Source: a virus
DNA length: 35,311 bases
Reading direction: 5' to 3' (one strand)
IMG/VR virus record: IMGVR_UViG_3300045988_070681
The notes below the pieces were generated by a model. That model made no database searches. It saw only the letters and a program-made list of their open reading frames with translations, and had not been told where the DNA came from. Each line of letters opens with the position of its first letter. Position 1 is the stretch's first letter. The translations under genes were made by a program, and so were the position numbers. Shown piece after piece: positions 1 through 35,311 of the stretch.

Positions 1-29
1 AAGTGTAAAAGATACAAATTTTAATCATT
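1..29. repeat. Terminal direct repeat; bases 1-29 are identical to 35283-35311 (contig closure of a circular or terminally redundant genome)
   Basis: Read directly: aagtgtaaaagatacaaattttaatcatt at both ends. Implies a unit length of 35,282 bp. Confidence 0.95.
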
Positions 30-118
30 TACAAGCAAAAACGCCAACTCGTTATGAATCAGCGTTTTAAGTTTTTAAGTGTAAAAGATGGAAGGGCATT
101 TATAAAAGATGAAAAGCA

Positions 119-9877: not shown

Positions 9878-11623
9878 CTATTTTAAATCCATTTTGTACA
9901 AAGATAGCTTACAATTCCCGGTTGCTACGTCAAATTCACCTAACGATTTAATGTAGAAATAGCTGTTTAGCTGGGAGAAGTAGTATGCATCCCCTAACCG
10001 AAGGTTTTCTACGTCCGCATATTCTAATTGTGCCTTGATCTTCACCTGTACACGTGACCTGAACATCTTGAAATGCCGGTTGATATACTGATAGTATATG
10101 TTCTTAACAAACGTATAATTGTAATCATAGCTGCTAGGTTTGGCGAATGCTGCTGTTAGCCCCATGGTCGGGAATACCCGGCTATTATAAGAGAATTTAG
10201 CAGACGATTTGTAAGCGTCCTTAACAGGCGTTACCGTTCCGGGTCCGTTGGAGTAACTGAATTTTTCCGAGCCTACCGTACACACGTATTGGTCCGCGAA
10301 CTCGTCCGGCACGTCTACGGTCTCGACGCTGCGCAGCTTGTCGCTCCAATCATGTACACGTGTCCACGCCGCACTTGTCCCGTCCCTTAAATCGGCGTCT
10401 ACTACGGGTTCCACACGTAACGTGCCGTTGCGGTAAATTTTCCGCCAGTGCCACGCCGCGCACATGTCGTCTACTATGTTTTTTACATCAGTATATGGGA
10501 AATCGATTGCCACGTTGGCAACCGAATCGTATTGGGGCTTAATAGCCGCATCATACACCGCTTGTCCCGCTCCGCATCTTATCAGCTCCTCCGGGTCGTA
10601 GCCGTCGGGGAACTTGAAGTAGTCCGTACGGGTCACGCCCCCGATAGTCGCCGCTAGTTGCATGTACGCGTCCTGTTTAGGGTAAACCGTCATTTGCGCA
10701 TTATCCTTCGTAGCGTAAATCCAAATACGGTCGGTTATGCTCCCGTAGTAGGACATTGACCGCCCCATCGCCGACACTACGCCGCGTAGCGTTATAACAG
10801 GTTTTACTGATGGTATAACCGCTCCGGTGTATTCTACGATCATCCGGAACTGCTGGTTCTCCCCCGCCGAGATCAGGAATCCCGCCGCTCCGCCCCCCGA
10901 ACGGTCACCAAAGTACGAAGCATACATATATATCTGTGAGTTGTCCAACACAACCGCTGCGGTGTCCGGATACTTATATCCCCCGCGCCCCTTGGTGCTG
11001 TCTTTGGGCACTAGCTTAACCGTGCCAGCCGCCACGTTGTCCTGCCACGTGATACTTCCGCGGGCGCAAACCATGGTGGGCGCTAGTACAGCCGCGTCCT
11101 CCGGCTGCGGGAGCAAACCGCCCGGGCTGTAAAACGGGTTAATTGCCGGGAATGTTATTTGCGGAAAGTCCACATATTGGCGGACTATCTTTGCAAGGTT
11201 GGCGGCGCTTAAGTGTATCCCCCCATCCTTCACGAGGCTAAAATCAGGTAACGTTGATATAGGTTTGCTTACATCAGCCCATTTGTCCGTACTCTCGATC
11301 AGGTTGATCGTGTACTCCGTTTCTGTCGCCGATACTTTAGCGTAAAATTCCGTTGGCTCATCGGACACATAAGCGTAATATTTGAACGGGATGGACGCTA
11401 TTTGCAGTTGCGCCGAATAGTATTCGCAATTCAATAGCCCCTTGTTTAGCCCTATAAACGTTTCGTTGTTGTTAGGCGTCCTCGGTACTTTGACCGTCGC
11501 ACTGAAAGCAACTCTATCCCCAGCCATAGTGATTGGGGATACGTTGTTTATAGTGATCTTAACCGTTGCATTCTCCAAACCGTCGATCCTGCGACCGTTA
11601 ACAATTAATGATGTTACTTGCAT
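9878..11623 (-). CDS. Tail/baseplate structural protein (occupies the distal-tail-protein position)
   Basis: 581-aa ORF adjacent to the tape measure gene. Assigned by position only. Confidence 0.5.
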   Translation of the reverse strand: MQVTSLIVNGRRIDGLENATVKITINNVSPITMAGDRVAFSATVKVPRTPNNNETFIGLNKGLLNCEYYSAQLQIASIPFKYYAYVSDEPTEFYAKVSATETEYTINLIESTDKWADVSKPISTLPDFSLVKDGGIHLSAANLAKIVRQYVDFPQITFPAINPFYSPGGLLPQPEDAAVLAPTMVCARGSITWQDNVAAGTVKLVPKDSTKGRGGYKYPDTAAVVLDNSQIYMYASYFGDRSGGGAAGFLISAGENQQFRMIVEYTGAVIPSVKPVITLRGVVSAMGRSMSYYGSITDRIWIYATKDNAQMTVYPKQDAYMQLAATIGGVTRTDYFKFPDGYDPEELIRCGAGQAVYDAAIKPQYDSVANVAIDFPYTDVKNIVDDMCAAWHWRKIYRNGTLRVEPVVDADLRDGTSAAWTRVHDWSDKLRSVETVDVPDEFADQYVCTVGSEKFSYSNGPGTVTPVKDAYKSSAKFSYNSRVFPTMGLTAAFAKPSSYDYNYTFVKNIYYQYINRHFKMFRSRVQVKIKAQLEYADVENLRLGDAYYFSQLNSYFYIKSLGEFDVATGNCKLSLYKMDLK

Positions 11624-11628
11624 ATCTT

Positions 11629-14139
11629 CTATCCTTCTTGTTCAATTATACAAATTGCGGTCTCGCCCGTAGCGTTTTCTGTTACTTCCAAATACCCGCT
11701 ACGCTTCGTTCCGGTGCTATTGGCGGTGTATGTAATATCAATAGGTATGATCCCACCCGCGTCGTTATTAGGGGAAACTGCCACCCAAGACGGTTTATTG
11801 GTCACCGCCCAACCGTTTGCAGTTCCACAAGCTACCCGCTTAACAGTCCCGGACGTTTTCGGCGCGGTTACCCTTGCTGGTTCTATGGCTATGCCAGTTG
11901 GCGCGCGCCCCTGATTAACTGTGGCTACTGCGGTCTGACCCGTTAAATCATTACGGAATGTTATCGTTCCGGTTCTCGGAGCGTCCGTAGTGTTATCCCC
12001 GATCGTTAACGCCACGTTGGTCGTACCGTTCGGTCCGTTTAATTGGCTAGGCGTTATCCATGTGGCGCGCCCCAATACAGACCAGTTGCCAACTGATGCC
12101 ACGGCAACCGTGACGGGTAAATGAACGTAGCGCGCGGCGATCGTAGACGGAGTAGCGGTTATATTTCCCGTAGCTCCTGCCTGCGTTACGCTGAAACTGT
12201 TTTGAACTGACAGATTCTCGGTGCTACGGTATGTTATATTTGCCGATCTCGGCGCCCCTGTATTTTCTTGTAAAATAAAATTACAATGAATACCGTATCC
12301 GGCGGCACCCGTTAAATTTATGGGGATCGCCCATGAAGGATACTCCACGCACTGCCAAGACGCATTAGAAACCATTTGTTTTAGAAGAATAGACGGATTC
12401 GCCTCTGCCGGAACTATAGTAGGCTCCGGGATAAATACTATACCAGCCTTCGCCTGGTTGATCGGTATCGTATAAGTAGCCGCGCCTGCCTTGCTCTTCA
12501 ACACGATGTTACCCGATCTAGCCTCTCCGGTGTTGGGGGCTATCGTTCCGTATACGTATTGTGTTCCGGCTTCTCCGATCCGGGTGTGTATGCTGTTGTC
12601 AGACACCCCGATTTGAGCGGCTGTTGCATCGCTAGGTGCTAAATTGCCCATTGGCTCTCTCCGCAATCTAAAAATAGCATATACCGCCCCGCTTATATTT
12701 ATAGTTCTAGTTTGATTCGCTCCTGATGTTAAATCATCCCCTGCAATAAATGTCATATTCGCGTCAAAAACGTACATTGTTACGTTGTATCCGGGAACAA
12801 ACGCCCTGATGAATACGGGTTTTCCGTATACAGGAATGGGGTTCTTCGATCTTATATAACCGTTAGATGTAAATTTCATGTTCTCATAAGGAGTTCCCGC
12901 CGTGCCTGATAGCCCGCCTTGCTCGAAATCGTCCGGCGTTAATGTTACCATATCACCGAAGGCGAACCAGTCCGGTTTACTCTGTACGTCCCATGCCGCG
13001 TTGCTATAAATGTTGTTCCACATCCCTTCCATGTAACTCGCCGATGCGTTCACCCACGGGTTGACCTGCGCACTGAATTGAATAGCGGGCGTAGGCGGTT
13101 GGTCCGGTGCTAACGGGAACATGTAATTGTCTTGCAGTTCTGTTGTTCTGAACCTTACTTGCTGCCTGTACGTCTTAGTACTGTTAGACCAGCGCGCGCC
13201 CGTGTCTCCTGAAACTTCTGCCCTGAACCGCTTGTTCTGGTATTGGTTTATGCCGGGAATGTTCAAGTCAAACACGACATTAGACGATACCAACAACTCC
13301 TGGTAGACGTTATACCATTCTTCGCCGTACTCTAGGTTAATGGTTAGCTCCGCTTGTCCTGTTACGCCTCCATGTCCACGGATCGGTGTGAACTTGTTAG
13401 ACCAAAAGTAGTCCTTGAATGCCGCCCAAAACCATTGACCGTTCCGCATGTTCCATCTAGCGCGAAGGGCGCATTGCAGGCTCCCATCGTAGACCACATC
13501 AGTATATAACTTGTCCTCATAGTTAATCACCTGGTCCAGACCAGACCCCCAAACATTTTTAATCGTCAACTTCTTAATATACTTTATGTCTATCGTATTC
13601 CCCAGTACATAGGTAGTAGGAAAGACCACGTCAGACGGCGCGCCCGTTACGGGTTCTACCTCTACTTGGAACGCGTCTAGCGGATGGATCCGGTAAGGGA
13701 AATATATGTCTAGCGTCTGGTTAGGTATGCGCGGTTTGGGCGGTTGGGGGAGCGCGCTATCAACGCCCAAAGTATCCCAGTACGTTTCATCACAGTGGAA
13801 CACGGGAAGCGTTATTTTATTAGCTAGGTTCGAACTCCATATTTCTACCTCCTGTTGGGGGAACGCCGGATCACCCTCCGACACGTTACGGTCTGCCCGT
13901 CTTAGCAACGGAGCGGCAAACGATAGGTCTAAATACAATTCCTCCTGGTAGGGGAGCGTTATTTCCTTCTTGACCGCCCCTCCGTTTGATACACGGACAT
14001 ATACCGGGTACTCATTGCCGCTTATGAAGTCCGGCGTCACCCGGACCATCAAAGGGCGCGTAGCCCACACGGGTAACTGACCGTTGTATGTCTGCCCGTC
14101 GCTTAGTGTTAAACCTGCTATCGGTATTTGTACATTCAT
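11629..14139 (-). CDS. Large tail protein with a central CBM-like domain and C-terminal BACON-like repeats (probable receptor-binding/host-recognition protein)
   Basis: 836 aa. Residues 567-836 contain three units of the pattern W..(x)..SW(I/V)...(x)..N.....R(S/T)(A/G).(I/L).(x)...(x)Q, typical of BACON domains. Residues 403-510 are paralogous to residues 117-223 of the 797-aa protein. Confidence 0.7.
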   Translation of the reverse strand: MNVQIPIAGLTLSDGQTYNGQLPVWATRPLMVRVTPDFISGNEYPVYVRVSNGGAVKKEITLPYQEELYLDLSFAAPLLRRADRNVSEGDPAFPQQEVEIWSSNLANKITLPVFHCDETYWDTLGVDSALPQPPKPRIPNQTLDIYFPYRIHPLDAFQVEVEPVTGAPSDVVFPTTYVLGNTIDIKYIKKLTIKNVWGSGLDQVINYEDKLYTDVVYDGSLQCALRARWNMRNGQWFWAAFKDYFWSNKFTPIRGHGGVTGQAELTINLEYGEEWYNVYQELLVSSNVVFDLNIPGINQYQNKRFRAEVSGDTGARWSNSTKTYRQQVRFRTTELQDNYMFPLAPDQPPTPAIQFSAQVNPWVNASASYMEGMWNNIYSNAAWDVQSKPDWFAFGDMVTLTPDDFEQGGLSGTAGTPYENMKFTSNGYIRSKNPIPVYGKPVFIRAFVPGYNVTMYVFDANMTFIAGDDLTSGANQTRTINISGAVYAIFRLRREPMGNLAPSDATAAQIGVSDNSIHTRIGEAGTQYVYGTIAPNTGEARSGNIVLKSKAGAATYTIPINQAKAGIVFIPEPTIVPAEANPSILLKQMVSNASWQCVEYPSWAIPINLTGAAGYGIHCNFILQENTGAPRSANITYRSTENLSVQNSFSVTQAGATGNITATPSTIAARYVHLPVTVAVASVGNWSVLGRATWITPSQLNGPNGTTNVALTIGDNTTDAPRTGTITFRNDLTGQTAVATVNQGRAPTGIAIEPARVTAPKTSGTVKRVACGTANGWAVTNKPSWVAVSPNNDAGGIIPIDITYTANSTGTKRSGYLEVTENATGETAICIIEQEG

Positions 14140-18323: not shown

Positions 18324-19497
18324 CTAATCATTATTTGCGTATCTCGGGCGGTATTTGCGTATAAGGTAATCAACGCCGTAACGTATGGCGTCCCATGCGT
18401 GGTTGTAAGCGTCTATCGGCTCGTTGGTGTATGTGTCGGTCAAGTTGTCCTTGACGTAGGTGTAATTGTCTGCCTCGTCCAGCACGTTCGTGCTCCGCTT
18501 CGTTACGAACAGGTTGAACTGCTTCACCTGCTGGATGCCCGCCCTTATCGACCCTTTCCCCTTGATGCAGGGGATCGTGTTGCATCCCAAGCCGCGTAGC
18601 TCTATGATAGACTTCTGCTCGGCGTTGTCGCATACGGTTATGGTACGGTGCAGCCCTTCGTCCTTAAGCCGCCCGGCGATCGTGCGGTTGAGCATCTTCG
18701 TCTCGTAGCACACTTCATCTATATATAAGTTCATGCCCCGCATGTATATTTTTGACGATAGCGGTCGGGTCGTTCTGGAAGCCGAAATCAAGCCCTGTGA
18801 CTAACTTAACGTCCTCGCCCGTTAGATCCTCCGGCAATGCGTCGATCGTCTCAATTTGGGGATATACGAGCCCTTCCAGCCCGCCAGTCAGCCCTTCACC
18901 GTAGACGCGCCACCAATTGGCGTCCTTGGCGTTCCGTTCGATCGCCTCTACCTGCTGCTTGGACAGGTACGGGTTATCCTTGTAGGTTGAGTGGACCGTT
19001 ACGTACTTGTCGCCTGTGAAGTCCGTCTCGCCCCAGAAGCGGCGCACCGGGTTGAAGGCAATAATAACCTTGAGCGTGGTACGTACGTCCAACTGCCGGA
19101 ATATCTCGCGGGGTATGCGCTGCGCCTCGTTGATGAAAAGGATGTCACGCGCCGGACCGTGGACCTTTGACGCGTTGTCACACCCGAAGAACTCGATACG
19201 GACGCCCGGCTTCACCGTGTAGACCATATCCGACTTGTTTAATGAGTTCTCGTCCCACAGCCCCTCGTCTAACAGCATGTTCTGGAAGTCGCGGAACATG
19301 CCGCGCTTCACGGCGGGCAACGTGTCGGTAACACACGAGATCATTAACGGGTCGGGGCTTTCCCTAGCCACGAGGTAAAGGAGTTGCAACACGCTCCACG
19401 TCTTAGAGGAACGCGTACCGCCTTTGCTGGCGATCCCCCTTATGTTCGGGTCTACAAAATGTTCTACCATCTTGTTGAAGACATAGGTGCAATTCAT
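18324..19497 (-). CDS. terL: Terminase large subunit (PBSX/XtmB-like), with the reading frame broken at a T5/A5 run (18749-18753)
   Basis: ORF 18715..19497 carries a Walker A-like GGTRSSKT and ends ..GLDFGFQNDPTAIVKNIHAGHELIYR*. ORF 18324..18791 continues in the +1 frame with IYMRGMNLYIDEVCYE... (nuclease domain, ..AWDAIRY..). Removing one A restores DPTAIVKIYMRGMNLYIDEV, the normal terminase junction. Confidence 0.85.
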
Positions 19498-20204: not shown

Positions 20205-20275
20205 ACAATTTTATTTTACAACTCTACAAAAATACGCTTTTTCCGCCCAAATCGCCATCTTTCCGCCTATCAAAA

Positions 20276-20650
20276 CTATCTTTTACGCCTGAAACTCCGA
20301 TGAACAGGGCGTTTCAGCCCTAGTGTAAAAGATGTAAAGATGAAAAGATGTTTTTCTATTATTTCCAAAATAAAAAAATACGCCAAAAAAATTATTTAAA
20401 AAAACAATAGTATATTTATGTTAACTATATTATTACTTATTACTATGTACTCCACTAGTATCTATCTTTACATCTTTTACAAATACACTATATTATATGA
20501 TAAAGTACTATAAATAAGCAAGTTAGGTGTAAAAGATACAAATTTTAACCTTTTACATCAAAAACTTGAAAGGTGCGTTCTGCGTCCTGTGGGGCTGGTC
20601 AGGCGTAAAACATGAAACGGCGGTGTAAAAGATGTTTTTCGCTACTTTTT
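20276..20650. promoter_or_regulatory. Control region B: AT-rich non-coding region with about 10 copies of the GTGTAAAAGAT-type motif, upstream of terS
   Basis: Motif copies at 20279-88 (inverted), 20323-33, 20333-42, 20342-50, 20464-72 and 20472-81 (inverted), 20527-39, 20633-44, plus degenerate copies. The layout matches 34990..35311. Confidence 0.8.
20324..20481. repeat. Inverted repeat pair (tgtaaaagatgtaaagat / atctttacatcttttaca, 18/18) flanking a 122-bp AT-rich core
   Basis: Read directly: left arm 20324-20341, right arm 20464-20481. Confidence 0.9.
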
Positions 20651-20783
20651 TGTCAAAAACAGGCTTTTTAGTTAAAATACCGTTAAAATCAAGATTTCTC
20701 TCTAAAAAGTTTTCTCTCACAAAGTTTTTGTAGAAGCGCTCCAAAATTGTGTTAACGATTTTAACACAAAAAAGGATTAACAT
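20553..20783 (-). CDS. Doubtful ORF (76 aa) at the 3' end of the early block
   Basis: ATG at 20783, 13 nt after the upstream stop. However, the ORF is very AT-rich, Lys/Phe/Asn-biased, and its 3' part runs through motif copies of control region B. Confidence 0.25.
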   Translation of the reverse strand: MLILFCVKIVNTILERFYKNFVRENFLERNLDFNGILTKKPVFDKKVAKNIFYTAVSCFTPDQPHRTQNAPFKFLM

Positions 20784-20796
20784 TTTTATACATTAG

Positions 20797-27305: not shown

Positions 27306-29696
27306 TCACAAAGATAGTAATTTTTTGCTTTCCTCGCTACCTTTACGGATATAAACTACTTGTGCGCCGTACAATTTAGTCCTATTTAACTTTCCTTTAA
27401 ACCATCCTTTCATTTGCCGTATCGCTGTGGACAATTCGCGCCCTTTCGCGCTTGTATAATCTTCTTTCCGGCGTCCCAGCGCATCCACCCAAAGCTCCAT
27501 TAAACAGAACTCGTTTTTAACCGTGTCGCCGGTCTCACCCAGACCGCCCGACAGGAAGTCGGCGCGTTGTTGTTCGGTGCGCTCTTCGTAGTCAGCCGGG
27601 AAAAGCCTGTCCACGTAGTTCTCTATAACGCCTACTAGCGGGCTTTCTTCTGTAAATTCTTCGCGTCCCTCGTTAGCGATCGCTTCGGCTTCGTCAGACA
27701 AAACAAGGCTTTCGCCCAACATGTACAGCTCCATTGCTTCCGCCCAAAGTTGGTCTATTACTGCCTCGAAAGACTTTTCAAACAGCTTGTGCGTGTTTTT
27801 GTTGGCGCGTACCTCTATCGGGAAGAAACGGCGGTTGCCGGTCTTGTCCTTCAAAAACTCATCATCATTGGTAGACCCGAAAAATACGCATTGCCTGCGG
27901 TGTGTCTTGACACGGCGGGCGTACGCGCTACGATACGTATCTTCGCGTTTGCTGATAAAGTTCTTCGTGGCTTCCACGTCCGAACGGCGAAGGGCTGACA
28001 ACTCGGCTAGCTCCACTATCCAAGCATGTTGTATCGCTTCATACGCTTTTTGCCCCGATACATCGGTTAATGAATCGTTGAACCAACCTTTTGAAAGGGA
28101 CTGTATAAGCGTGGACTTTCCCGCACCTTGACCTGAATACATGACAAGCGCCGTATCAAATTTGCGTCCCGGCTCGTACACCCTGGTAACGGCGGCTACC
28201 AGCATTTTACGGAACGCCTCGGACACGTATATGCTAGGCTCTGCCCCCATGTAGTCAACTAAGAAATTATCTATCCGTTTCACGCCGTCCCATCTTTGCG
28301 CCTCTAGGTATTTTTTGATAGGGTGGAAAGCGTTTTCACTGCAAACCTTTTCCAGTGCATCGTTTAATTTGCTGTCATTATAAATACCGTGCAAGTCCTC
28401 TATACGTCCGCGGATAATCGCTACGGCGGTATCGTCCAGCATGTCGCCCTTCTTGATGTCATTCGAGAAGAACGGCGTACGGGTGTACACGATCGTATCA
28501 AGGAACAAGTCATATGCTAATAGACCATTGAGCAGGGGATCGCATTTGAACGCGTTGACAAAGTTCCGGACGGTGCACATTTTATCGCCCTTCTTATCCA
28601 GGTCCCAAACAAGTTCGGCGGCGGTTTGCGCGTCGCCCTTAACATCGTCCGTGTATTCCTCGAAGTCACTTAGGTTGCCGTCAACGGCTACCATGTCCTT
28701 AACACATTCCTTATCGGAGCAAACCAGCTTGTTCATTTCCCGGCTGCTGTCTTCCTTGCCCAGATGCCCGAATTTGTGCACCCGTACGAGGTCATAGGCG
28801 TTATAAGCGTGCCCGTCCCCGATCGGGTCGGTTGAGTGGTGGGAAAAACAAAGCACATCGTCATACACAACCAAGCCCGCCGCGCCTGATCCAAGCGCGT
28901 AGGTGTATCGTCCGTTGTCTACTTCCGTGTAAACATCTGGCAAGTATTTATCTATGGCTTCGGGGATCGTGTACGAGCGGCAAAACGCGCCTACTAAGCC
29001 CTCTTTGTCGCGCGGGTCTTTCGCCATCTCCTTGCTGATAAGCGCGCGGGTATCGCGTTCCACATCTGAATGGAACGCCCAATTGCGCACGTCGCGCCAT
29101 TCTTCATTGTCTCCGTACAAGCCTATCAGGTACCCGGCGTCGATCGGCTCGCCTTCAAATACTTCAAACATCCCCTCCTGGTCTTTGGAAAGAGATTGCC
29201 AGTACATCATGCGTTCGGGCTGGAACGTTGTTTTGTCGAACAAGTCTATGCCCAGCAACTCGGCTACTTTCCGCGCTGCTGCCTCGTACATAACCACGTC
29301 GGTAACTTCTTCCTTGAAAGGCATGATAAGACGGTAACGGCGCGCGCCTGGTCTATCCGAACGCGTTGTATATATAACCGCTGCGTATCCGTGGAAACGG
29401 TCCTCAAAATCGATTGGGAAAAGGTCGTCGGCAAAGTCAATATCTAACGTTATCATAGTACGGGATATAACTGCCTTTTTCAGGCGTTGCGGTCCTGAAA
29501 GCTCGCCCGCCATGAATCCGCCTACGTCCTTCAAGGACGATTTGGCGGGCTTATCCAGCTTATCGTACTCGCGTACCGTTTCGTTAGTGATAACGGGCGT
29601 TCCTAAACGTTTTACAAAATCGTCCCATGTGAGGCGCACCGCCTTCCATTTCAGGGATGCCGAAGAACCTGCAAGTGATAAGGTGTATTTTTCCAT
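27306..29696 (-). CDS. Primase-helicase fusion (AEP prim-pol N-terminus with a VirE/D5-like SF3 helicase C-terminus)
   Basis: N-terminal MITLDIDF (AEP DxD motif). C-terminal Walker A SGQGAGKST and the downstream VFFGSTND/RRFFPIEV pattern are typical of D5/VirE-type phage primase-helicases. Confidence 0.8.
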   Translation of the reverse strand: MEKYTLSLAGSSASLKWKAVRLTWDDFVKRLGTPVITNETVREYDKLDKPAKSSLKDVGGFMAGELSGPQRLKKAVISRTMITLDIDFADDLFPIDFEDRFHGYAAVIYTTRSDRPGARRYRLIMPFKEEVTDVVMYEAAARKVAELLGIDLFDKTTFQPERMMYWQSLSKDQEGMFEVFEGEPIDAGYLIGLYGDNEEWRDVRNWAFHSDVERDTRALISKEMAKDPRDKEGLVGAFCRSYTIPEAIDKYLPDVYTEVDNGRYTYALGSGAAGLVVYDDVLCFSHHSTDPIGDGHAYNAYDLVRVHKFGHLGKEDSSREMNKLVCSDKECVKDMVAVDGNLSDFEEYTDDVKGDAQTAAELVWDLDKKGDKMCTVRNFVNAFKCDPLLNGLLAYDLFLDTIVYTRTPFFSNDIKKGDMLDDTAVAIIRGRIEDLHGIYNDSKLNDALEKVCSENAFHPIKKYLEAQRWDGVKRIDNFLVDYMGAEPSIYVSEAFRKMLVAAVTRVYEPGRKFDTALVMYSGQGAGKSTLIQSLSKGWFNDSLTDVSGQKAYEAIQHAWIVELAELSALRRSDVEATKNFISKREDTYRSAYARRVKTHRRQCVFFGSTNDDEFLKDKTGNRRFFPIEVRANKNTHKLFEKSFEAVIDQLWAEAMELYMLGESLVLSDEAEAIANEGREEFTEESPLVGVIENYVDRLFPADYEERTEQQRADFLSGGLGETGDTVKNEFCLMELWVDALGRRKEDYTSAKGRELSTAIRQMKGWFKGKLNRTKLYGAQVVYIRKGSEESKKLLSL

Positions 29697-32484: not shown

Positions 32485-33648
32485 TTAGCCTTCTACGTCG
32501 AAGTCGCAGAGCGGGCTATATTCCACGCCCTTAGCCGATTCAGGTACTAGCTTTGGCGCTCCGGGTCTCGATTCGATAGCGTCTCCGAACCTCGCGCTAA
32601 ATGCCTTTTTGCCTACCAGCTTTTCGAGATCGCCGATACCCTTTAGTTTGATGTTTAAAACCTCGTCCTCGAGGAACTCGTTTAGGAGCGCTTGGCGTAT
32701 CTTCGCCTCGTCCTTGATAACTCGGCTTGTCCTACCCGCTACGAGCTTGTAGCCCTCCCATTTGTGCCCCTGCATCGCCCTATCGTAGACGTACTTATTA
32801 ACCGATTCGATCCAGCTCTTATACGTGTCTATTTTGCCGATTAGGTCTACTATCTCCTCGTCTGATAATAACAGGGGCTCGGGCTTCCCGTCGAAGTCTG
32901 CAAGAATTGCGTCACGTTGTGCCCTGCATTGGGCTTTGACCGGGCAAAAACCGCACCAGCTTCCGATAACCTGTTTTCCTACGCCCTGTATCGCCTTCTT
33001 TGCGGCTGGTTTTAGGACTTTCTCCGCCCACGCTAACAAATCCTTCTTAGGCATTTCGAACGTGTCGTAATGGTCTAATCTGACTTGCGCGATCGTCATC
33101 CGAATTTTCTCGGTATGGTCCGTTTCCGGGCTTTTCAAGGTTCCAAGGGCGTACATTAACATTTGTTCGTTCATGCCGGCGTACACCTTCACGCCCGCAC
33201 CGTACTTCAAATCTATAATGTGTATCGTCTTGCCAGATACAAGTGTCACGTCTACCGATCCGAAGGAGCCCGGCGCGAAGTCTGTAATGTCTACCCGGCG
33301 CTCTAGGTACATCCGGCACGCGCCATCCTGTTTTTGCATCTCGTAGCCTTCTCCGATAACAAACTCGCAATAGCTCCGTATATAGTCCGCCATATCGATA
33401 CTGAAGAGCGTGTTTTCAAGATGTTCGTTTTTCAACGGTACTGCATCATCAACTATCGGGTCGTATTCACCTTCCAGGTATTTGGTCAAAGCGTATTCGG
33501 CTATCTCGTGTGCTAGTGTCCCCTCCTCTGCGTAAACGCTTGGCTTGCCGCCTGCTTCTTCTGCAAGTAGTGCAGACGGCGTGCAGTTGATCCACCGTTT
33601 CGCACTACTAGGCGATAAAATCGCATGGTCCCTTTCCGCGTGTCCCAT
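32485..33648 (-). CDS. DUF2800-type PD-(D/E)XK (Cas4-like) nuclease
   Basis: SPSSAKRWINC, IHIIDLKYG (DxK) and the C-terminal CGFCPVKAQC give a Cas4-like 1+3 Cys arrangement. This is the canonical partner of DUF2815 and PolA. Confidence 0.8.
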   Translation of the reverse strand: MGHAERDHAILSPSSAKRWINCTPSALLAEEAGGKPSVYAEEGTLAHEIAEYALTKYLEGEYDPIVDDAVPLKNEHLENTLFSIDMADYIRSYCEFVIGEGYEMQKQDGACRMYLERRVDITDFAPGSFGSVDVTLVSGKTIHIIDLKYGAGVKVYAGMNEQMLMYALGTLKSPETDHTEKIRMTIAQVRLDHYDTFEMPKKDLLAWAEKVLKPAAKKAIQGVGKQVIGSWCGFCPVKAQCRAQRDAILADFDGKPEPLLLSDEEIVDLIGKIDTYKSWIESVNKYVYDRAMQGHKWEGYKLVAGRTSRVIKDEAKIRQALLNEFLEDEVLNIKLKGIGDLEKLVGKKAFSARFGDAIESRPGAPKLVPESAKGVEYSPLCDFDVEG

Positions 33649-34205
33649 TACAGGCGAGTTGAGATGTATTCGATGAACTCCGCAAACATAGATTCCTTAA
33701 GTGTCGGGAAAGACGTTGCTCCTACCTGTTCAAACGCTTCTTGTACAATATGGCGTTTCTTTGCGTTTAAAGCCTTCATAGCCCACTGCTTGCACTCTTC
33801 CACTGTGTGCTCCGTTTCGTCCTTAGCGGGCTTCCCTACCGGTGCGGCGGGGGCGGGCGCTTCTGCTGGTGCTGGTGCTTCTGCTGGTGCAGGTGCTTCT
33901 GCTGGTGCTGGTGCTTCTGCTGGTGCTGGTGCTTCAACCTTTGCAGGTTCTTCCACCTTCTTCGTGCGGCTCGCCCTATTCTTAGCGCGTTCCTCGGCTA
34001 TGTGTTCCGATACGGTTTTGACTTGTGCGGCTTCTTCACCCTTCACCTTCGTTGCTTCTGCCACGGCGTCCGCCAACTTGTCAAGACCTGTTTTCTTCTC
34101 GGTCATCGCGGGTGCGGTTTCGCCTGCCAGCTCGCGCAAATAATTAGATGTTGCCAACAAATCCTGTTTACTCTCTGTTCCTGATAATTCGATTACTACT
34201 TTCAT
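33648..34205 (-). CDS. Hypothetical protein with an (APAPAE)n linker
   Basis: 185 aa. The ATG at 34205 overlaps the HTH ORF stop (ATGA). The central repeat is encoded by 33859-33936. Confidence 0.65.
   Translation of the reverse strand: MKVVIELSGTESKQDLLATSNYLRELAGETAPAMTEKKTGLDKLADAVAEATKVKGEEAAQVKTVSEHIAEERAKNRASRTKKVEEPAKVEAPAPAEAPAPAEAPAPAEAPAPAEAPAPAAPVGKPAKDETEHTVEECKQWAMKALNAKKRHIVQEAFEQVGATSFPTLKESMFAEFIEYISTRL
33859..33936. repeat. Tandem repeat, 18-bp unit gcttctgctggtgctggt x 4.3
   Basis: Read directly. Units at 33859, 33877 (one substitution), 33895 and 33913, plus a partial unit. Confidence 0.95.
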
Positions 34206-34698: not shown

Positions 34699-34911
34699 AT
34701 CTAGTAATATTTAATCCGGTTCTCCGTCTAGGAATAGGATAATAAGTTTATTATGGCTTTTCAGTTATTTATCGTCGGAGATTCGGGCTTTATAGCTTCA
34801 ATTAAGCGGAAACCGCACCTTCTTTTCAAATGAACTAGGATACCATCCGTGTTTCCCGTCTCGCGTCCTTTGGTTACGATTGGCGACGCTCTCATTTCTC
34901 TTTCGATGTCA

Positions 34912-34941
34912 CAAAGGTAACGCTTTATTTTGGACTACAAA
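34912..34941 (-). promoter_or_regulatory. Bacteroidota-type early promoter P3 (TTTG, 18 nt, TACCTTTG)
   Basis: The minus strand reads TTTGtagtccaaaataaagcgtTACCTTTGtgacatcgaaag. The TTTG(g)TAGTCC and TTTG..GTG.CA..AAAG flanks resemble P1 and P2. Confidence 0.65.
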
Positions 34942-34989
34942 AATATTTCCCAAAAAACTTTAGTAATTTAACTCTGATTAACTGTTTTG

Positions 34990-35311
34990 AAGGTTTGATA
35001 ACAGTGTAAAAGACAAATAGCCCTTTTTAAGTGGATCTTTACACCCTTAACTGCGTGCGTATCAGTTAGTTATGTGGCGAAAACGGGTGATATGTAAAAG
35101 ATGTAAAGATGATTTCTATAAAGTTTAAAATAAAATATTTCCATAAATTCATTCACATATTAATTCATATATTTACATATTTTATAGATTATCTCATATT
35201 TATCTGTTAGTTCTATATATCATCTTTACATCTTTTACATTAGATATATATTGATAGATAAAGTACTAGTTATTAGTGAGTTAAGTGTAAAAGATACAAA
35301 TTTTAATCATT
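34990..35311. promoter_or_regulatory. Control region A: AT-rich non-coding region with GTGTAAAAGAT-type motif copies, upstream of the early block (continues into 1-118 across the circular junction)
   Basis: Motif copies at 35004-13, 35035-45 (inverted), 35093-35103, 35102-12, 35221-29 and 35230-39 (inverted) and 35285-97, then 79-90 and 101-110 after the junction. Confidence 0.8.
35093..35239. repeat. Perfect 20-bp inverted repeat (tgtaaaagatgtaaagatga / tcatctttacatcttttaca) flanking a 107-bp AT-rich core
   Basis: Read directly: left arm 35093-35112, right arm 35220-35239. Confidence 0.95.

What the first reader, a model, noticed from the sequence alone, without database searches (positions are those of the whole stretch)
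34990..35311. Control region A: perfect 20-bp inverted repeat around a 107-bp AT-rich core, upstream of the early promoter
The arms tgtaaaagatgtaaagatga (35093-35112) and tcatctttacatcttttaca (35220-35239) are exact reverse complements. Each arm is itself a tandem of the 9-10-bp motif. The core between them has almost no G or C. Additional motif copies flank the pair (35004-13, 35035-45 inverted, 35285-97). This is the better-preserved copy of the region B architecture. It lies about 150 bp upstream of P3, where it could serve as an origin with an unwinding element or as a regulator-binding platform.
Basis: seen in the sequence. Interest (0 to 1): 0.7.

Follow-up and report, generated by a model that had tools for sequence, protein, structure and literature searches.

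The report
Candidate phage replication origin with iterons
The inverted repeat around an AT-rich core is real, and it most likely marks one of two replication-origin-like sites in a gut Bacteroides phage, where the phage's own helicase would bind short repeated words and open the DNA, as in staphylococcal pathogenicity islands.

Summary
A perfect 20-bp inverted repeat (22 bp if extended) at 35093-35112 / 35220-35239 flanks a 107-bp core with 15% GC. No shuffle gave a repeat longer than 14 nt.

The window is a circular Bacteroides phage genome of about 35.3 kb. Region A therefore continues into bases 1-118 and carries ten copies of the word TGTAAAAGAT. Region B (20257-20634) is a paralogue. The two cores are the two least stable duplex segments in the genome.

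In about 35 related phages the layout is kept: at least two words on each side of the AT core, pointing inward. The perfect symmetry is not kept, because A's left arm is degenerate in most relatives. The word itself switches (TGTAAA to TGTCAA) at many sites at once, and always in A and B together.

The phage helicase is homologous to the SaPI Rep1 initiator-helicase. Its C-terminal winged helix matches Rep1's iteron-binding domain. The residue at the wing tip (778) is Arg in 11 of 12 C-type phages and not Arg in 23 of 24 others.

My best reading, at confidence 0.6, is a SaPI/P4-like iteron origin. Operator-array, pac-site and inverton readings are weaker. All function is inferred.

The parts
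35093..35112 (+). Left arm of region A: two tandem iteron words, S3 (35093-35102) and S4 (35102-35110), pointing towards the core
   Evidence: Exact reverse complement of 35220-39. This is the least conserved site pair in relatives.
35113..35219 (.). AT-rich core of region A, 107 bp, 15% GC; candidate DNA unwinding element
   Evidence: Holds the least stable 100-bp duplex window in the genome (starts 35157; -99.4 vs mean -140.3, sd 9.8 kcal/mol). Positions 35133-35190 are almost invariant in 30 relatives.
35220..35239 (-). Right arm of region A: iteron words S5 (35222-30) and S6 (35230-39), pointing towards the core
   Evidence: Conserved in all relatives and switches to TGTCAAAGATGGAAAGAT in C-type phages.
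35005..35045 (.). Outer iteron pair S1 (35005-14, +) and S2 (35035-45, -), lying between the core module and the promoter
35286..35311 (+). Iteron S7 (35286-95, which is the same sequence as bases 4-13). Together with S8 it forms a 10-bp inverted pair around the invariant spacer ACAAATTTTA.
   Evidence: The window's 29-bp terminal overlap lies here.
24..33 (-). Iteron S8 (TGTAAATGAT on the minus strand), across the circular junction
41..69 (-). Terminator-like 13-bp hairpin followed by a U-run, probably ending the late (lysis) operon
   Evidence: dG -14 kcal/mol, z -3.95. The sequence is conserved in relatives.
80..110 (+). Iterons S9 (80-89) and S10 (101-110) in a 21-bp tandem unit
   Evidence: Relatives carry one, two or three copies of the unit (L016/L022/L032 have 1; L031 has 3).
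34912..34941 (-). Bacteroides sigma-A-type promoter of the early operon: -33 TTTG, 18-nt spacer, -7 TACCTTTG
   Evidence: The block is invariant in all relatives, including the B. caccae phage.
20257..20634 (.). Region B, the paralogous module. It has a left arm of three tandem words (20324-20350), an AT core (20351-20463), a right arm (20464-20481) and further words at 20257-64, 20278-87, 20528-37, 20548-57 and 20624-33.
   Evidence: Holds the second least stable 100-bp window in the genome (starts 20385).
27306..29696 (-). Rep/VapE-type helicase (796 aa), the proposed iteron-binding initiator. The C-terminal winged helix spans roughly aa 725-790, and codon 778 is at 27363-27365.

Best explanation
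Region A and its paralogue region B are replication-origin-type sites of a virulent Bacteroides phage. Each is an array of about ten 9-10-bp iterons (TGTAAAAGAT). At least two iterons on each side point inward towards a very AT-rich segment of 107-113 bp. The proposed mechanism is inferred by homology with SaPI Rep proteins: the phage's Rep/VapE-type helicase recognises the iterons through its C-terminal winged-helix domain, assembles on both sides of the AT-rich core, melts it and loads itself as the replicative helicase. Iteron position 4 appears to be read by the residue at the tip of the wing (778), with Arg pairing with a C:G base pair and Ala, Gln, Val or Ser pairing with A:T. What is shown: the sequence architecture, its conservation, the concerted change of iterons, the homology and fold of the helicase domain, and the statistical link to residue 778. 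What is inferred: binding, melting, origin firing, and whether A and B act as two origins or as one two-part origin like ori and crr of phage P4. Because both arrays sit just upstream of the early and late promoters, an added effect on transcription is possible.
For: 1. Architecture. Inverted double iterons flank the two least stable duplex segments of the genome, and the word is confined to A and B (15 of 16 hits).
2. Known match. [quoted passage not shown]
3. The phage helicase is homologous to SaPI1 Rep1 (7pds, E 3.8e-75; the profile match runs into the start of the C-terminal domain).
4. The C-terminal 160 aa model has pLDDT 87 and winged-helix topology. Its only significant structural matches are the six 7pds chains (probability 1.0, about 170 columns).
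5. The layout is kept in about 35 relatives, including B. caccae phages that use a different word, GTCAC/GTCAT.
6. Concerted change. TGTAAA becomes TGTCAA at many separate sites. It is always in both A and B of a genome (10/10 vs 0/13, p 9e-7) even though the adjacent p179 gene alleles are shuffled.
7. Both arms change together, for example in L029.
8. Helicase codon 778 is the best-associated column of 7,802 in its neighbourhood. In the early block, TerS, the lysis genes and the portal and TerL flanks, only iteron positions do as well. Five GenBank phages outside the scan fit 5 of 5. Overall the table is 11/1 vs 1/23, p 2e-7.
9. Residue 778 sits at the wing tip and is hypervariable inside an invariant Y-G-x-Q motif in 51 homologues.
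Against: There is no functional measurement of any kind. Several other points weigh against the reading:
- The sites are 7-8 kb from the helicase gene, whereas SaPI origins lie directly downstream of rep.
- The words are 9-10 nt, not 5-6 nt.
- A's left arm is degenerate in most relatives, so region A may be auxiliary or decaying.
- The AT core of A is almost invariant. That is more than an unwinding element needs, and I cannot explain it.
- The residue 778 link has two exceptions (035735 and 038600).
- The association tests are not corrected for shared ancestry.
- The scan of 5.9-15.6 kb had only 14 contigs, and there a dozen tail-gene columns associate about as well.
- The N-terminal 400 aa of the helicase match no primase family.
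- Both arrays lie upstream of promoters, which also fits a regulatory role.
Confidence: 0.6

Rival explanations
1. The arrays are operator or activator sites for a phage transcription regulator that controls the early promoter (A) and the late promoter (B), with no direct role in replication.
For: Both arrays lie immediately upstream of the two operon promoters. In region B, two words sit about 25-55 bp upstream of the -7 box. S7 and S8 form an operator-like inverted pair with an invariant spacer. A 59-aa excisionase-type HTH protein is encoded two genes downstream.
Against: The HTH protein and gene 1 are identical in A-type and C-type phages. No column in any early gene other than the helicase tracks the word type. 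The layout with an AT core and inverted flanks, plus a Rep homologue carrying the iteron-binding fold, is explained better by an origin. The two roles are not exclusive.
Confidence: 0.2
2. The arrays are packaging (pac) recognition sites for the terminase, like P1 pac with word clusters flanking a cleavage region.
For: Region B lies directly upstream of the small terminase gene. The comparison with the clustered-word layout of P1 pac rests on my own knowledge, not on a tool result.
Against: There are two copies, and A is about 15 kb from the terminase genes. No TerS column co-varies with word type. GenBank records of relatives are not linearised at these sites in any consistent way.
Confidence: 0.05
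3. The core is an invertible DNA switch (a Bacteroides-style inverton) flipped by a recombinase acting on the 20-bp inverted repeat.
For: A perfect 20-bp inverted repeat flanks about 107 bp, a size typical of Bacteroides invertons (own knowledge).
Against: The core has the same orientation in 31 of 31 region A and 30 of 30 region B assemblies. The left arm is degenerate in most relatives. No TAnnTTTG promoter lies inside the core. No recombinase is annotated in the related records.
Confidence: 0.03

Closest known systems
SaPI replication origins with Rep / PriRep self-loading initiator-helicases (Staphylococcus aureus pathogenicity islands; PMC9371898)
   Same: Short iterons, six to twelve per origin. 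A central AT-rich region with at least two iterons on each side in opposite orientation. A homologous helicase core (7pds, E 4e-75). A C-terminal winged-helix domain with the same fold.
   Different: Here there are two paralogous sites per genome, each 7-8 kb from the helicase gene and at an operon boundary, rather than one origin directly downstream of rep. The words are 9-10 nt rather than 5-6 nt. Extra inverted and 21-bp tandem word pairs are present. The AT core is nearly invariant. The host element is a virulent Bacteroides phage with its own DNA polymerase A. Binding and melting are untested.
Phage P4 ori and crr bound by the alpha protein (primase, SF3 helicase and C-terminal winged helix; domain order from PMC2777425, the ori/crr details from my own knowledge)
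   Same: Two separate cis regions, kilobases apart, carry the same iteron. The initiator-helicase carries a C-terminal winged helix.
   Different: No sequence relation to alpha was tested. A primase domain was not detected in this protein. Whether both regions are required here is unknown.
Iteron origins of phage lambda and theta plasmids, with iterons next to an AT-rich unwinding element (own knowledge; reviewed in PMC4980987)
   Same: Repeated initiator-binding words lie next to the least stable DNA. The 21-bp tandem unit S9/S10 varies in copy number.
   Different: [quoted passage not shown]

Membership tests
SaPI-type iteron origin served by a Rep self-loading helicase | The element encodes a Rep/VapE-type helicase | tested here: met
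   Pfam VapE-like domain, E 7e-76. Homology to 7pds_A (SaPI1 Rep1), E 3.8e-75 over residues 385-711.
SaPI-type iteron origin served by a Rep self-loading helicase | The helicase has a C-terminal domain containing a winged helix | tested here: met
   AF2 model with pLDDT 87 and beta-alpha-alpha-alpha-beta-beta order. Foldseek finds only the 7pds chains as significant matches, at probability 1.0. The profile match runs into the Rep1 C-terminal domain.
SaPI-type iteron origin served by a Rep self-loading helicase | Six to twelve short iterons | tested here: met
   About ten words in A and about ten in B. They are 9-10 nt long rather than 5-6 nt.
SaPI-type iteron origin served by a Rep self-loading helicase | A central AT-rich region with at least two iterons on each side in opposite orientation | tested here: met
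   S3,S4 | 107-bp core | S5,S6 in region A, and the same layout in region B. It is also kept in the B. caccae phage.
SaPI-type iteron origin served by a Rep self-loading helicase | [quoted passage not shown] | tested here: not met
   The helicase gene is at 27306-29696; A and B are about 7-8 kb away, and no words lie next to the gene.
SaPI-type iteron origin served by a Rep self-loading helicase | Rep binds the iterons specifically and melts the AT region | not testable with these tools
   Only indirect evidence: word type co-varies with wing residue 778.
P4-type two-part origin (ori plus crr) | Two separate cis regions carry the same iteron | tested here: met
   A and B align over about 310 bp with the words kept. 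Word type is linked between A and B in 23 of 23 contigs.
P4-type two-part origin (ori plus crr) | The initiator is a primase-helicase with a C-terminal winged helix | tested here: inconclusive
   The helicase and winged helix are met. The N-terminal 400 aa have no Pfam or PDB match. 'Primase' appears only in source names of homologues.
P4-type two-part origin (ori plus crr) | Both regions are required in cis for replication | not testable with these tools
   Needs deletion analysis.
Bacteroides invertible promoter (inverton) | Both orientations of the flanked segment occur | tested here: not met
   The orientation is the same in 31 of 31 (A) and 30 of 30 (B) independent assemblies. Minor populations within a sample could not be examined.
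Bacteroides invertible promoter (inverton) | A promoter lies inside the flanked segment | tested here: not met
   No TAnnTTTG on either strand of the core.
Terminase recognition (pac) site | The small terminase recognises the words | tested here: not met
   Indirect test only: no TerS column tracks word type. Binding and termini were not testable.

The most novel reading that the evidence does not exclude
A and B form one two-part origin. The helicase bridges two iteron arrays placed at the early and late operon boundaries, which couples replication start to the early-late transcription switch. A single wing-tip residue (Arg vs Ala/Gln/Val at 778) sets which iteron word is read, so related phages in one gut keep replication specificities that do not cross-react.
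Probability: 0.2. Interest if true: 0.65.

Novelty: new variant of a known kind. Interest (0 to 1): 0.5.

Why it matters
I found no described replication origin for any Bacteroides phage in the searchable library. These roughly 36-kb phages are common in sewage and gut viromes. A defined origin, together with the helicase that recognises it, would give a starting point for shuttle vectors and for engineering these phages. It would also extend the SaPI 'self-loading helicase' model from Gram-positive satellites to a virulent Bacteroidota phage. The apparent one-residue, one-base specificity switch is a small and directly testable protein-DNA recognition problem.

Tried and rejected
- Rfam scan of the whole window: no match.
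- tRNA scan: none.
- Sigma-70 and terminator consensus scans: uninformative for Bacteroides. I replaced them with a TAnnTTTG scan.
- Gene 1 and the 59-aa HTH protein as the word-binding partner: rejected, because they are identical across word types.
- p179 and TerS as the partner: rejected, no associated columns.
- First model of the C-terminal domain from 10 sequences: too poor to use (pLDDT 48). Redone with 51 sequences.
- Fold of the early leader RNA: not unusual (z 0.3).
- Literature search for papers on these phage isolates: nothing found.
- Cumulative GC skew: falls steadily because all genes are on one strand, so it says nothing about an origin.
- Whole 37-kb GenBank loci were not available to scripts, so I compared those by hand from alignments.

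Full report
**What the window is.** The last 29 bases of the window repeat the first 29, so the sequence is a circular or terminally redundant contig with 35,282 unique bases. All long ORFs lie on the minus strand, in two blocks.
- The early/replication block runs from 34698 down to about 20797. It includes a DUF2800 nuclease, an Enc34-type SSB, DNA polymerase A, a VapE-type helicase and an SNF2 helicase.
- The packaging, structural and lysis block runs from 20204 down to 119. It includes the small terminase, the capsid and tail genes, and a DUF6549 protein.
- The DNA is about 83% identical to a group of sewage phages of Bacteroides ovatus, B. koreensis and B. kribbi, and its polymerase is about 72% identical (protein level) to that of B. 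caccae phages.
- In phage BO1 the order lysis gene, region A, early genes is internal to the record. This confirms the circular junction. Region A therefore spans 34699-35311 plus 1-118, and the finding's right edge is only the edge of the window.

**Checking the observation.**
- The arms at 35093-35112 and 35220-35239 are exact reverse complements. Each is a tandem of TGTAAAAGA and TGTAAAGA. The core is 107 bp with 15% GC.
- TGTAAAAGAT with at most one mismatch occurs 16 times against 2.7 expected, and 15 of those hits are in region A or B.
- The longest perfect inverted repeat is 22 nt. The maximum in 100 genome shuffles and in 2000 shuffles of region A alone was 14 nt.
- The cores of A and B are the two least stable 100-bp duplex windows in the genome: -99.4 and -102.2 kcal/mol, against a mean of -140.3 with sd 9.8.

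**Anatomy of region A.** Reading along the minus strand, which is the direction of transcription, the elements are:
1. The stop codon of the last lysis-block gene (119).
2. Two words, S10 and S9, in a 21-bp tandem unit (110-80).
3. A 13-bp hairpin with a U-run (69-41; dG -14 kcal/mol, z -3.95), probably the terminator of the late operon.
4. An inverted word pair, S8 and S7, around the invariant spacer ACAAATTTTA.
5. The right arm (S6, S5), the AT core, and the left arm (S4, S3).
6. An outer pair, S2 and S1.
7. A canonical Bacteroides promoter, TTTG-N18-TACCTTTG (34941-34912), sitting in a block that is invariant in all relatives.
8. A leader of about 210 nt, then the first early gene (34698).

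Region B (20257-20634) has the same parts in the same order upstream of the small terminase gene. It aligns with A over about 310 bp at 69% identity. The words are kept but the cores have diverged.

**Comparison with relatives.** I aligned region A from 5 GenBank phages and 26 IMG/VR contigs, and region B from 4 GenBank phages and 29 IMG/VR contigs. Four results matter.
1. The layout, with words on both sides of an AT-rich core pointing inward, is kept everywhere. This includes the B. caccae phage, which uses a different word (GTCAC/GTCAT).
2. The perfect 20-bp symmetry is not kept. A's left arm is the least conserved site pair and is good only in this phage's own subclade and a few others. 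The inverted symmetry is kept better in B (mean 14.7 of 20 matches, against 12.7 in A). Family-wide, A is therefore not the better-preserved copy.
3. About 55 bp of A's core are almost invariant. That is more constraint than an unwinding element needs, and I cannot explain it.
4. The core has the same orientation in every assembly, so there is no sign of inversion.

**Concerted change of the word.** In one set of phages, position 4 of the word is C instead of A (TGTCAAAGAT). The second word of each arm changes as well, from GTAAAGAT to GGAAAGAT. These changes appear at many separate sites (S1, S5, S6 and often S7-S9) and on both arms.
- Word type in A and in B of the same contig is perfectly linked: 10 of 10 contigs with C-words in A also have them in B, and 13 of 13 without them in A have none in B (p 9e-7).
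- This holds even though the two allele groups of the p179 gene next to region B each contain both word types. The linkage has therefore survived recombination.
- Repeated identical substitutions at the same position of a 10-bp word at many loci are hard to explain without a trans-acting reader whose specificity differs between lineages.

**Which protein reads the word?**
- Gene 1 and the 59-aa excisionase-type HTH protein just downstream of A are identical in A-type and C-type phages.
- I scanned alignments of the same contigs column by column for association with word type. In the loci flanking A and B, only columns inside A and B reach two or fewer errors.
- In 9.4-kb loci around the helicase (7,802 columns), the single best column is helicase codon 778, with 2 errors in 30. 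It is Arg in 9 of 10 C-type phages and Ala, Gln or Val in 19 of 20 others.
- Arg778 occurs on different local haplotypes.
- On the portal/lysis side and the TerL side (24-30 contigs), again only iteron positions reach two or fewer errors.
- Five GenBank phages not used in the scan fit 5 of 5. BO1 (C-type words) and BC679P1 (GTCAC/GTCAT words) have Arg. BKO1-1 and BK735P1 have Ala, and BK687P6 has Ser.
- The overall table is 11/1 against 1/23, p 2e-7.
- Caveats: there are two exceptions; nothing is corrected for shared ancestry; and the stretch 5.9-15.6 kb could be scanned in only 14 contigs, where a dozen tail-gene columns do about as well.

**The helicase.**
- Residues 385-711 match PDB 7pds_A at E 3.8e-75. 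PMC9371898 identifies 7PDS as the SaPI1 Rep1-DNA complex.
- That paper states that SaPI Reps are initiators as well as helicases. Their C-terminal winged helix recognises short iterons. An origin has six to twelve iterons around a central AT-rich region, and at least two iterons on each side point in opposite directions. This is the layout of A and B.
- A profile of the C-terminal 160 aa aligns with Rep1 into the start of its C-terminal domain.
- A first model from 10 sequences was poor (pLDDT 48). With 51 homologues the model reached pLDDT 87 and showed winged-helix topology.
- The only significant structural matches of that model are the six 7pds chains (probability 1.0, about 170 columns). 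They are followed by weak matches to other winged-helix DNA-binding domains.
- Residue 778 lies at the tip of the beta-hairpin wing. It is hypervariable inside an otherwise invariant Y-G-x-Q motif, as expected for a residue that sets specificity. An Arg reading the G of a C:G pair is chemically plausible, but that is inference.
- The N-terminal 400 aa match no family or solved structure. I therefore do not call the protein a primase-helicase.

**Interpretation.** The best-supported reading is that A and B are origin-type iteron arrays for a Rep-like self-loading helicase (confidence 0.6). They differ from SaPI origins in four ways:
- There are two per genome.
- They lie 7-8 kb from the helicase gene, at operon boundaries.
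- They use 9-10-nt words.
- They carry extra word pairs.

Two iteron regions kilobases apart recall ori and crr of phage P4, whose alpha protein also ends in a winged helix (PMC2777425; the ori/crr details are from my own knowledge).

The rival readings are weaker:
- A purely regulatory role is possible and is not exclusive (0.2).
- A pac site is unlikely, because TerS does not co-vary and there are two copies (0.05).
- An inverton is unlikely, because of the single orientation, the degenerate arm in relatives and the lack of an internal promoter (0.03).

**Novelty.** I found no paper on origins or iterons in Bacteroides phages, or on these isolates, in the library. I rate this as a new variant of a known kind. 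All functional steps (binding, melting, firing) remain to be shown.

Noticed in passing
window 35283-35311 and 1-29; compare 20527-20548: The 29-bp terminal overlap of the contig falls exactly on iteron S7. This stretch is also a 22-bp exact repeat shared with region B (gtgtaaaagatacaaattttaa). The contig end probably reflects an assembly-graph break at a repeat rather than a physical genome end.
   Followed up: partly
window 18324-19497, near 18753: The large terminase gene is split into two overlapping ORFs (18715-19497 and 18324-18791). Relatives have one 1173-nt ORF. The difference is one extra A in an A-run, which could be a sequencing error or a real frameshift.
   Followed up: partly
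window 34779-34826 (early leader, minus strand): A stretch of about 48 nt (…GGTGCGGTTTCCGCTTAATTGAAGCTATAAAGCCCGAATC…) is about 85% identical to intergenic DNA in unrelated Bacteroides phages (B. fragilis siphophages such as vB_BfrS_23, and B. uniformis EMB1/2), in the same orientation relative to the genes. It has no Rfam match and no unusual predicted fold. BK735P1 lacks most of this leader. Function unknown.
   Followed up: partly
window 20640-20790; L006 21420-21680: A second, different repeat family (TTTCTCTCACAAAGTTTTT-like) lies between region B and the last early gene. The B. caccae phage has five copies and several perfect 18-nt inverted pairs. On the minus strand the repeat contains AAACTTTG, close to the Bacteroides -7 box.
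   Followed up: no
window 33648-34205: This early gene encodes a run of APAPAE-type tandem repeats. Most GenBank records of relatives lose alignment to the window near here (about 33785), within roughly 100-300 bp of a record end, so many records appear to be linearised near this repeat.
   Followed up: no
window 10283-12916 (tail genes): In the 14 contigs available, about a dozen columns in two tail genes associate with iteron type at 1 error in 14. This may reflect lineage or host structure and leaves open a host-linked explanation for the word types.
   Followed up: partly
window 35133-35190: The core of region A contains three direct units of about 12 nt (ATTCACATATTA / ATTCATATATTT / ACATATTTTATA) and is nearly invariant across 30 relatives, while the flanking iterons vary. 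The reason for this strong constraint is unexplained.
   Followed up: partly
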